This document shows, piece after piece, positions 61,808 to 62,349 of a DNA stretch of 64,000 bases. Below the pieces are notes generated by a model. It made no database searches and was not told where the DNA came from. It saw nothing but the letters and a program-made list of their open reading frames with translations. The translations under genes and the position numbers were made by a program. The DNA lies in NCBI RefSeq assembly GCF_051903065.1, contig NZ_CP178438.1. One strand, 5' to 3'. The DNA comes from Escherichia coli. Its GTDB lineage: Bacteria; Pseudomonadota; Gammaproteobacteria; Enterobacterales; Enterobacteriaceae. The stretch's first letter is position 1, and each line of letters starts with the position of its first letter.

Positions 61808-62086
61808 TTACCCAAAGAGCGCCGCGTGAGTTCCAGTTCTCTCAAATCGTAAAAGTTTATCGGTAAGTTTGTAAATCAGGAGCCAGTCCGGTTCGACATG
61901 AGCATCGCGATAACCTTTCCATGAACCTTGCAGCGGGTGGTCTTTATAAACAGCTGGAATCGGTAAAGTATTATTGATAAGAAGCGTCATAAGATATTTC
62001 AATTTATTCATATCCTTATGACGCTTTTGTGCAAGTTTTACATCCTTTGAAAATTGTCCCGAGTATTCAATATCCCTTTGAATCAT
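61808..62086 (-). CDS. yafQ: YafQ mRNA interferase toxin (RelE/ParE superfamily)
   Basis: 92-aa ORF directly after dinJ. Confidence 0.85.
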   Translation of the reverse strand: MIQRDIEYSGQFSKDVKLAQKRHKDMNKLKYLMTLLINNTLPIPAVYKDHPLQGSWKGYRDAHVEPDWLLIYKLTDKLLRFERTGTHAALFG

Positions 62087-62088
62087 AT

Positions 62089-62349
62089 TTAAATTCCTAA
62101 TTTATCAAATAAATCATCGGCGTCTTTGGCCTTATGAACATCAACGCCAGCTTCGCTGTTTTTGATTGATTGAATGGTTAATTGATTAGGCTCGCGTAAA
62201 TCAAACGGCAATGCCTTTTCACGCGCGACCTTTGTGAGGGTTATGCGAACCAGGTCAGAGATGGTCAGCCCCATCCCGGCCAGTACGTCCGCCGCCTGAT
62301 TCTTCAGATCTTCATCGATTCGGGCGCGAACAAACGCGTTAGCAGCCAT
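62089..62349 (-). CDS. dinJ: DinJ antitoxin
   Basis: 86-aa ORF starting MAANAFVRARIDEDLKNQAADVLAGMGLTISDLVRI. Confidence 0.85.
   Translation of the reverse strand: MAANAFVRARIDEDLKNQAADVLAGMGLTISDLVRITLTKVAREKALPFDLREPNQLTIQSIKNSEAGVDVHKAKDADDLFDKLGI

What the first reader, a model, noticed from the sequence alone, without database searches (positions are those of the whole stretch)
61808..62349. yafQ-dinJ toxin-antitoxin pair and nearby REP/rayT elements
A known type II TA module (DinJ antitoxin upstream of YafQ toxin) sits beside yafL, REP clusters and the REP-associated transposase rayT. These are ordinary K-12-like accessory features, noted only for completeness.
Basis: established knowledge. 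Interest (0 to 1): 0.15.

Follow-up and report, generated by a model that had tools for sequence, protein, structure and literature searches.

The report
Known E. coli dinJ-yafQ toxin-antitoxin pair
This is the well-studied E. coli dinJ-yafQ toxin-antitoxin operon, intact and in its usual chromosomal place next to yafL, REP repeats and the REP-associated transposase rayT, so it is an ordinary, already explained feature.

Summary
yafQ (61808-62086, minus strand, 92 aa) and dinJ (62089-62349, minus strand, 86 aa) are both intact. dinJ comes first and 2 nt separate the two genes. Both proteins pass the curated family thresholds and are 97-100% identical to crystallised E. coli YafQ and DinJ. All six YafQ active-site residues are present. 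The promoter, an operator-like palindrome and the LexA box match K-12 exactly. The neighbours are as claimed: dpaA (yafK), yafL, two REP/BIME clusters and an intact rayT with its HUH motif and Tyr115.

The module is accessory: 3325 of 5426 complete E. coli genomes carry it. The other genomes, and also E. albertii, Citrobacter and Phytobacter, have dpaA directly next to yafL.

Three small extras came out of the comparison:
- The TA-bearing haplotype replaces about 837 bp (61793-62629), which includes the yafL promoter and signal-peptide codons.
- This segment has low GC (0.405).
- It is 97-99% identical in another Escherichia species whose flanks are only 86-95% identical, which suggests spread by homologous recombination.

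This strain's rayT allele is rare (at least 99% identical in only 3-5 records).

Verdict: already known, low interest.

The parts
61808..62086 (-). yafQ: ribosome-dependent mRNA endonuclease toxin of the RelE/ParE superfamily, 92 aa, intact
   Evidence: ORF. Pfam YafQ_toxin 110.5 bits against a cut-off of 30. TIGR00053 118.2 bits against 87.25. 89/92 identical to PDB 4ML2 YafQ. H50, D61, H63, D67, H87 and F91 are all present (residue roles from PMC4652777).
62089..62349 (-). dinJ: RelB/DinJ-family antitoxin and autorepressor, 86 aa, intact; its stop codon lies 2 nt before the yafQ ATG
   Evidence: ORF. Pfam RelB 117 bits against 22.4. TIGR02384 83.7 bits against 45.65. 86/86 identical to PDB 4ML0 chain A. 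One change from K-12, I69V.
62366..62381 (-). LexA-box core (CTGAATAAATATACAG on the gene strand) between the -10 hexamer and the dinJ ribosome-binding site
   Evidence: It is the only site in the 64 kb within 2 mismatches of CTGTATATATATACAG, with 0.01 expected by chance. It is identical to K-12. LexA binding to this promoter is reported, but DNA-damage induction has not been seen (PMC4996492).
62387..62415 (-). dinJ-yafQ promoter-like site (-35 TTGTCG, 17-nt spacer, -10 TACAAT); the spacer encloses the perfect palindrome GCTCATTTGAGC, a candidate DinJ operator repeat
   Evidence: Consensus scan. The palindrome was read from the sequence. The region is identical to K-12. Assigning the palindrome as a DinJ operator is inference.
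61793..62629 (.). Haplotype-specific segment that separates TA(+) from TA(-) E. coli: it holds yafQ, dinJ, the divergent dinJ/yafL promoter region and the first ~24 codons (signal peptide) of yafL; GC 0.405
   Evidence: Alignment to TA(-) strains L003 and L004. GC content. About 2100 genomes match only up to window position 61792.
62559..63308 (+). yafL: NlpC/P60 (C40) peptidase, 249 aa; its TAG stop codon lies inside the GTAG tetranucleotide of the following REP
   Evidence: Pfam NLPC_P60 114.7 bits. RefSeq annotation. Sequence.
63305..63388 (+). BIME: two REPs in inverted orientation (GTAG...CTAC), 5' of rayT
   Evidence: Rfam naRNA4 65.1 bits against 59.5. The first REP differs at 2 positions from the K-12 REP crystallised with TnpAREP (PMC3479197).
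63484..63981 (+). rayT (yafM): REP-associated tyrosine transposase, 165 aa, intact; a rare allele
   Evidence: NCBIfam NF047646 175 bits against 80. PDB 4ER8 E=1.6e-110. H59-M60-H61, Y115, N119, H123 and E161 are present. At least 99% identical in only 3-5 E. coli records.
59976..60108 (+). REP cluster (a BIME plus a third REP) between gmhA and yafJ
   Evidence: Rfam naRNA4 76.6 bits.
60912..61652 (-). dpaA (yafK): the gene immediately downstream of yafQ on the same strand; no predicted terminator lies between them
   Evidence: NCBIfam NF040599 428 bits against 365. 246/246 identical to K-12. No terminator-like site on the minus strand in 61653-61807. The fold of that spacer is not significant, z = -1.28.

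Best explanation
The region is an intact chromosomal copy of the E. coli dinJ-yafQ type II toxin-antitoxin operon. Both genes are transcribed from one sigma-70 promoter on the minus strand. DinJ is made first. [quoted passage not shown] When DinJ is lost to proteolysis, free YafQ enters the ribosomal A site and cuts mRNA at in-frame AAA-G/A lysine codons. His50 or His63 acts as the base and His87 as the acid, with Asp67 tuning His87, and this slows translation. A LexA box overlaps the promoter. Shown here: gene integrity, family membership, near-identity to the crystallised proteins, presence of all catalytic residues, and promoter, operator and LexA-box sequence identical to K-12. Taken from published work on the K-12 proteins and not tested here: the biochemistry. 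The adjacent REP/BIME clusters and rayT form the E. coli 'REPtron'. They are a separate, equally well-known system and have no demonstrated link to the TA pair.
For: Intact ORFs at the stated coordinates. Pfam and NCBIfam scores are above the curated cut-offs for YafQ and for RelB/DinJ. YafQ is 89/92 identical to PDB 4ML2 and DinJ is 86/86 identical to 4ML0_A. The catalytic residues H50, D61, H63, D67, H87 and F91 are conserved (roles from PMC4652777). The three YafQ substitutions (Y12F, L43I, I69L) are conservative, and F12 also occurs in the crystallised 4ML0_B. The last 68 nt before the dinJ start codon, with the -35 and -10 hexamers, the palindrome GCTCATTTGAGC and the LexA box, are identical to K-12. 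The LexA-box core is unique in the window. Gene order matches K-12 and the RefSeq annotation of 100%-identical strains. Published mechanism: AAA-G/A cleavage, DinJ repression, LexA binding (PMC4996492); repression by DinJ alone at a single inverted repeat, without conditional cooperativity (PMC12301738).
Against: Nothing in the sequence argues against it. Caveats: no expression or activity data exist for this strain. SOS induction through the LexA box has not been observed experimentally in K-12 (PMC4996492), so the role of the box is unsettled. The physiological role of chromosomal TA modules in general is disputed (PMC7167474).
Confidence: 0.96

Rival explanations
1. The pair is present but functionally decayed: an attenuated toxin or a non-neutralising antitoxin, as is seen for some chromosomal TA loci that drift after being acquired.
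For: The module is accessory and other strains have lost or broken it. Examples are the IS1-truncated yafQ in strain 2017.10.01CC and variants that RefSeq names only 'YafQ family toxin'. This allele carries 3 substitutions in YafQ relative to K-12.
Against: Both frames are full length. All six active-site residues are intact. The substitutions are conservative (Y/F, L/I, I/L), and F12 occurs in a crystallised YafQ. DinJ is identical to a crystallised DinJ that binds YafQ. The promoter is unchanged.
Confidence: 0.03
2. The main role of the module here is not stress-responsive growth control. Instead it acts as a selfish addiction cassette, or as an anti-phage or regulatory element, that spreads and persists by recombination. 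In this reading DinJ (which is reported to repress cspE and so lower RpoS) or read-through into dpaA matters more than the toxin.
For: Presence is patchy: 3325 of 5426 genomes. GC is low, 0.405 against 0.508 for the window. The segment is 97-99% identical in Escherichia sp. MOD1-EC7003 while the flanks are 86-95%. Homologues at 79-81% aa identity sit on ~42-kb linear plasmids. No terminator is predicted between yafQ and dpaA. DinJ is reported as a regulator of cspE/RpoS (PMC4996492).
Against: No PADLOC defence model matches. There are no phage-borne copies. This is a reading of biological role and does not conflict with the molecular mechanism in the best explanation. None of it was tested here.
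Confidence: 0.3

Closest known systems
E. coli K-12 dinJ-yafQ (b0226-b0225; PDB 4Q2U, 4ML0, 4ML2)
   Same: Same locus, gene order, gene lengths and 2-nt spacer. The promoter, palindrome and LexA box are identical. All catalytic residues are present. DNA identity over the segment is 98%.
   Different: YafQ has Y12F, L43I and I69L; DinJ has I69V; one base differs upstream of the -35 hexamer. None of these touches a residue known to be functional.
E. coli RelBE (RelB/RelE type II TA)
   Same: Same superfamily. YafQ also matches TIGR02385 RelE_StbE (90.2 bits) and DinJ matches Pfam RelB. Both toxins are ribosome-dependent mRNA endonucleases and both antitoxins are RHH repressors.
   Different: DinJ alone, bound at a single inverted repeat, represses dinJ-yafQ without conditional cooperativity. 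relBE needs the toxin and both repeats (PMC12301738). YafQ is specific for AAA-G/A codons (PMC4996492).
Plasmid-borne RelB/DinJ-RelE/StbE pair on ~42-kb linear plasmids of E. coli, Klebsiella and Citrobacter (e.g. NZ_CP026209.1)
   Same: Same two-gene architecture and gene sizes. Toxin 79% and antitoxin 81% aa identical.
   Different: Only about 68% DNA identity. The replicon and the flanking genes are different.
E. coli K-12 REPtron: rayT (TnpAREP, PDB 4ER8) flanked by BIMEs
   Same: rayT has the same length, with HUH H59-M60-H61, Y115, N119, H123 and E161. GTAG-REP/BIME clusters lie on both sides.
   Different: 12 aa differences from K-12 and 92% DNA identity. The allele is at least 99% identical in only 3-5 E. 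coli records. The first 5' REP differs at 2 positions from the crystallised K-12 REP.

Membership tests
YafQ toxin (RelE/ParE superfamily; Pfam PF15738, TIGR00053) | Profile-HMM score above the curated cut-off | tested here: met
   PF15738 110.5 bits against 30; TIGR00053 118.2 bits against 87.25.
YafQ toxin (RelE/ParE superfamily; Pfam PF15738, TIGR00053) | Active-site residues His50, His63, Asp67, His87 (plus Asp61 and Phe91) | tested here: met
   All six are present at the same positions. Roles are from PMC4652777.
YafQ toxin (RelE/ParE superfamily; Pfam PF15738, TIGR00053) | Same fold as solved YafQ | tested here: met
   89/92 identical, full length and ungapped, to PDB 4ML2. Near-identity makes a separate fold prediction unnecessary.
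YafQ toxin (RelE/ParE superfamily; Pfam PF15738, TIGR00053) | Ribosome-dependent cleavage of in-frame AAA-G/A codons; growth arrest on expression | not testable with these tools
   Needs an in vivo or in vitro assay. Known for the K-12 protein (PMC4996492).
DinJ antitoxin (RelB/DinJ family; Pfam PF04221, TIGR02384) | Profile-HMM score above the curated cut-off | tested here: met
   PF04221 117 bits against 22.4; TIGR02384 83.7 bits against 45.65.
DinJ antitoxin (RelB/DinJ family; Pfam PF04221, TIGR02384) | Identity to the DinJ that is solved in complex with YafQ | tested here: met
   86/86 identical to 4ML0 chain A; E=7e-51 to 4Q2U_A.
Type II toxin-antitoxin operon | Two small adjacent co-oriented genes, antitoxin first, tightly spaced, with an autoregulatory palindrome in the promoter | tested here: met
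   dinJ then yafQ with a 2-nt spacer. The palindrome GCTCATTTGAGC lies between -35 and -10. DinJ binding to it was not tested.
LexA (SOS) regulon | LexA box CTG-N10-CAG with an AT-rich core overlapping the promoter | tested here: met
   CTGAATAAATATACAG at 62366-62381, 14/16 to the consensus core, unique in the window with 0.01 expected.
LexA (SOS) regulon | Induction by DNA damage | not testable with these tools
   Published work reports LexA binding but no induction (PMC4996492).
REP/BIME repeats | Imperfect palindrome of about 35 nt matching the E. coli REP consensus, with a 5' GTAG, paired in inverted orientation | tested here: met
   59976-60059 and 63305-63388 each run GTAG...CTAC. 2 consensus matches against 0.00 expected. 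Rfam naRNA4 is above gathering score at both. A query containing the BIME finds a median of 10 places per E. coli genome.
RayT / TnpAREP (HUH Y1 transposase clade; NCBIfam NF047646) | Profile score above cut-off, HUH motif and catalytic tyrosine | tested here: met
   NF047646 175 bits against 80. 4ER8 E=1.6e-110. H59-M60-H61, Y115, N119, H123 and E161 are present. No Pfam family matched at E<=0.001.
RayT / TnpAREP (HUH Y1 transposase clade; NCBIfam NF047646) | Single-copy gene flanked on both sides by REP/BIME | tested here: met
   The 5' BIME is at 63305-63388. The 3' cluster starts at about 63990 and is cut by the window end; a strain that differs from the window by 1 base in 8401 shows at least 5 REPs there. 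There is a median of 1 place per genome.

The most novel reading that the evidence does not exclude
The dinJ-yafQ segment behaves as a recombination-borne cassette. It entered Escherichia at the ancestral dpaA-yafL junction together with a foreign yafL promoter and signal-peptide coding region. It has since moved between Escherichia lineages by homologous recombination. Carrying the TA pair would therefore also change how the neighbouring peptidoglycan enzymes YafL and possibly DpaA are expressed or exported.
Probability: 0.4. Interest if true: 0.2.

Novelty: already known. Interest (0 to 1): 0.08.

Why it matters
It matters little. dinJ-yafQ is one of the best-characterised type II TA systems, with crystal structures, a mapped active site and a described operator, and this copy differs only by conservative substitutions. 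Its patchy distribution across E. coli phylogroups is already published (PMC6896753). The extras found here add local evolutionary detail, not a new kind of system. They are the exact haplotype boundaries, one of which lies in the yafL signal-peptide codons, the low divergence of the cassette across an Escherichia species boundary, and a rare rayT allele.

Tried and rejected
- Rfam at a permissive E-value over 59900-64000 found only the two BIME/naRNA4 hits and no RNA in or beside the TA genes.
- The phage collection gave no match to the TA segment, so it is not prophage-derived.
- PADLOC defence models gave no match.
- I looked for a terminator between yafQ and dpaA and found none. The fold of the 163-nt spacer is not better than shuffles, z = -1.28.
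- The generic CTG-N10-CAG pattern is not enriched in the window, 22 against 14.5 expected. I therefore used the stricter consensus core, which is unique. The 20-mer consensus with 3 mismatches found nothing.
- High-identity 'plasmid' hits are chromosome-sized or F-prime-like records that also carry chromosomal neighbours such as yafL, not independent mobile copies. This is inferred from their sizes and annotations.
- I looked for repeats flanking the cassette that would indicate transposition. Only a weak 17-nt, 82% match turned up (D9), judged to be chance.
- Liang et al. 2014 (PMC4110321), wanted for the operator sequences, is not held. The palindrome assignment is therefore my reading of the sequence.
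- Structure prediction and the large protein-database searches were not run, because solved structures at 97-100% identity make them unnecessary.

Full report
**Observation.** The coordinates in the finding are exact.
- The ORF listing gives a 92-aa ORF at 61808..62086 (-) and an 86-aa ORF at 62089..62349 (-).
- Direct translation confirms both are uninterrupted. The junction reads TAA-AT-ATG, so dinJ lies upstream of yafQ with a 2-nt spacer.
- No ORF of 40 aa or more lies wholly within the pair on the opposite strand.

**Identity of the two genes.**
- The toxin scores 110.5 bits on Pfam YafQ_toxin (cut-off 30) and 118.2 bits on TIGR00053 (cut-off 87.25).
- The antitoxin scores 117 bits on Pfam RelB (cut-off 22.4) and 83.7 bits on TIGR02384 (cut-off 45.65).
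- Against solved structures, YafQ is 89/92 identical to 4ML2 and DinJ is 86/86 identical to 4ML0 chain A.
- Relative to K-12, YafQ carries Y12F, L43I and I69L, and DinJ carries I69V. F12 also occurs in the crystallised 4ML0_B.
- The residues assigned to catalysis by Maehigashi et al. (PMC4652777) are His50, Asp61, His63, Asp67, His87 and Phe91. All are present.

**Regulatory region.**
- On the gene strand, the sequence upstream of dinJ contains a promoter-like site: -35 TTGTCG, a 17-nt spacer and -10 TACAAT.
- The spacer holds the perfect palindrome GCTCATTTGAGC.
- It is followed by CTGAATAAATATACAG and then the AGGAG ribosome-binding site.
- The LexA-box core is the only site in the 64 kb within two mismatches of CTGTATATATATACAG, with 0.01 expected.
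- The last 68 nt before the dinJ start codon, which hold all these elements, are identical to K-12; the only difference in the 91 nt compared lies upstream of the -35 hexamer.
- Published work reports that LexA binds this promoter, although damage induction has not been seen (PMC4996492). It also reports that DinJ alone represses at a single inverted repeat, without conditional cooperativity (PMC12301738).
- Assigning the palindrome as that repeat is my inference.

**Surroundings.**
- The gene order is fadE, gmhA, yafJ, dpaA (yafK), yafQ, dinJ, yafL, rayT. This matches K-12 MG1655 and a strain that differs from the window by 1 base in 8401.
- DpaA is 246/246 identical to K-12.
- REP/BIME clusters lie at 59976-60059 plus 60076-60108, and at 63305-63388. 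Both BIMEs exceed the Rfam naRNA4 gathering score.
- rayT (63484..63981) scores 175 bits on NCBIfam NF047646 (cut-off 80) and E=1.6e-110 to PDB 4ER8.
- rayT retains H59-M60-H61, Y115, N119, H123 and E161, the active-site residues named in PMC3479197.
- A further REP begins at about 63990 and is cut by the window end. In the near-identical strain at least five REPs follow rayT. rayT is therefore flanked by REPs on both sides, as in the K-12 'REPtron'.

**How it works.**
- Shown here: the genes are intact, they belong to the YafQ and DinJ families, they are near-identical to the crystallised proteins, all catalytic residues are present, and the control region is unchanged from K-12.
- Taken from published K-12 work and not tested here: DinJ dimers repress the operon and neutralise YafQ in a heterotetramer. 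When DinJ is degraded, YafQ cleaves ribosome-bound mRNA at in-frame AAA-G/A codons by acid-base catalysis.

**Distribution and origin.**
- The TA genes are present at 80% coverage or more in 3325 of 5426 complete E. coli genomes. About 2100 genomes match only up to window position 61792. This agrees with the published pattern, presence in the E/B1/A lineage and phylogroup F (PMC6896753).
- In TA(-) strains dpaA is followed directly by yafL.
- Alignment shows the two haplotypes diverge from 61793, which is 15 nt past the yafQ stop, to about 62629, inside yafL.
- The first 25 residues of YafL, its signal peptide, therefore differ between haplotypes: MSLPSIPSFVLSGLLLICLPFSSFA against MSSFLLGRFLHPGVFSLCVLLPLLA. 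The mature protein is shared.
- E. albertii, Escherichia sp. E1V33, eight Citrobacter genomes and Phytobacter have dpaA next to yafL without the TA pair. The TA(-) arrangement is therefore ancestral.
- The TA segment has GC 0.405, against 0.508 for the window.
- In Escherichia sp. MOD1-EC7003 it is 97-99% identical over about 61550-62550, while the flanks are 86-95% identical. This suggests recent exchange by homologous recombination.
- The nearest mobile relatives are a DinJ/RelE-like pair on ~42-kb linear plasmids, at 79% and 81% aa identity.
- There are no phage copies and no PADLOC hits.

**rayT allele.**
- rayT is 92% identical to K-12 in DNA, with 12 aa changes.
- Only 3-5 E. coli records match it at 99% or more, and about 3500 fall in the 90-95% band.
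- It is no closer to most E. coli than to E. albertii, which is 94% identical.
- I did not pursue the donor.

**Verdict.**
The proposed refutation, disrupted frames, fails.
- This is the known dinJ-yafQ module in its known setting, so novelty is 'already known' and interest is low.
- The haplotype boundary inside yafL and the inter-lineage transfer signal are minor evolutionary details.

Noticed in passing
window 61793-62629: The TA(+) and TA(-) E. coli haplotypes differ by a replacement, not a clean insertion. About 837 bp, holding yafQ, dinJ, the intergenic promoters and the yafL signal-peptide codons, stands in place of about 235 bp of non-alignable sequence. Both haplotypes encode a 25-aa YafL signal peptide, but only 6 of the 25 residues are identical.
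   Followed up: yes
window ~61550-62550 vs L007 3000-4000: The TA segment is 97-99% identical to that of Escherichia sp. MOD1-EC7003, a separate species representative. The flanking yafJ/dpaA and yafL/rayT are 86-95% identical. This suggests recent transfer between lineages by homologous recombination.
   Followed up: partly
window 63000-63981: The 3' part of yafL and rayT form a rare, divergent allele. They are at least 99% identical in only 3-5 of ~20,000 E. coli records, and 90-95% identical in about 3500. In two of the three matching genomes IS1A interrupts the region. E. albertii (94%) is as close as most E. coli.
   Followed up: partly
window 63305-63308: The yafL stop codon TAG (63306-63308) lies inside the conserved GTAG guide tetranucleotide of the first REP of the BIME.
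   Followed up: no
window ~20976-54000: Compared with K-12, a ~33-kb island follows tRNA-Asp (20793-20869). By the annotation of a 99.9%-identical strain it carries a complete type VI secretion cluster: tssA-C, E-H and J-M, tagH, vasI, two hcp, vgrG, a Tle1-like phospholipase effector and an M35 peptidase, plus ISAs1 remnants.
   Followed up: partly
window 42503-43559: A 1057-bp insertion sequence of IS903 size and layout, absent from the otherwise 99.9%-identical strain ECNB21-M121. It has terminal inverted repeats starting GGCTTTGTTGAATAAATC, a 322-aa ORF listed by the ORF scan (presumed transposase; no family search was run) and a 9-bp target duplication CCTGTAACT. It sits between hcp and tssB of the T6SS cluster. 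Conversely, the IS1A next to tRNA-Asp in that strain is absent from the window.
   Followed up: partly
window 7413-12645: An rRNA operon (16S, tRNA-Ile, tRNA-Ala, 23S, 5S, tRNA-Asp) whose layout matches, from my memory of K-12, rrnH. There is also a StyR-44 Rfam hit at 9285-9393, just upstream of the 23S gene.
   Followed up: no
L006 (SFGJ01000062.1): A contig labelled 'MAG: Clostridiales bacterium' encodes a YafL 98% identical to the E. coli protein. This is almost certainly contamination or misbinning of the MAG.
   Followed up: no
L008-L010 (Pseudocitrobacter): Pseudocitrobacter YafL is 86-89% identical to the window's, closer than Citrobacter (74-79%). It is not next to dpaA or yafJ. P. 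faecalis also has a 91%-identical RayT beside it. This may reflect horizontal transfer of yafL-rayT.
   Followed up: no
L005 (NZ_AP027800.1) 5209-6234: In strain 2017.10.01CC an IS1A truncates yafQ, and dinJ, yafL, rayT and part of the lateral-flagellar remnant are deleted. This is an example of the module decaying.
   Followed up: no
L002 11155-12659 (beyond the window end): In the near-identical strain ECNB21-M121, dinB is followed directly by yafP, with no yafN-yafO TA pair annotated. Strain 2017.10.01CC (L005) has dinB-yafN-yafO-yafP. A second nearby TA module therefore also varies between strains.
   Followed up: no
L027 (NZ_CP026209.1) 2485-3024: About 42-kb linear plasmids of E. coli, Klebsiella and Citrobacter carry a DinJ/YafQ-like pair, 81% and 79% aa identical. 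These are the closest mobile relatives found.
   Followed up: partly
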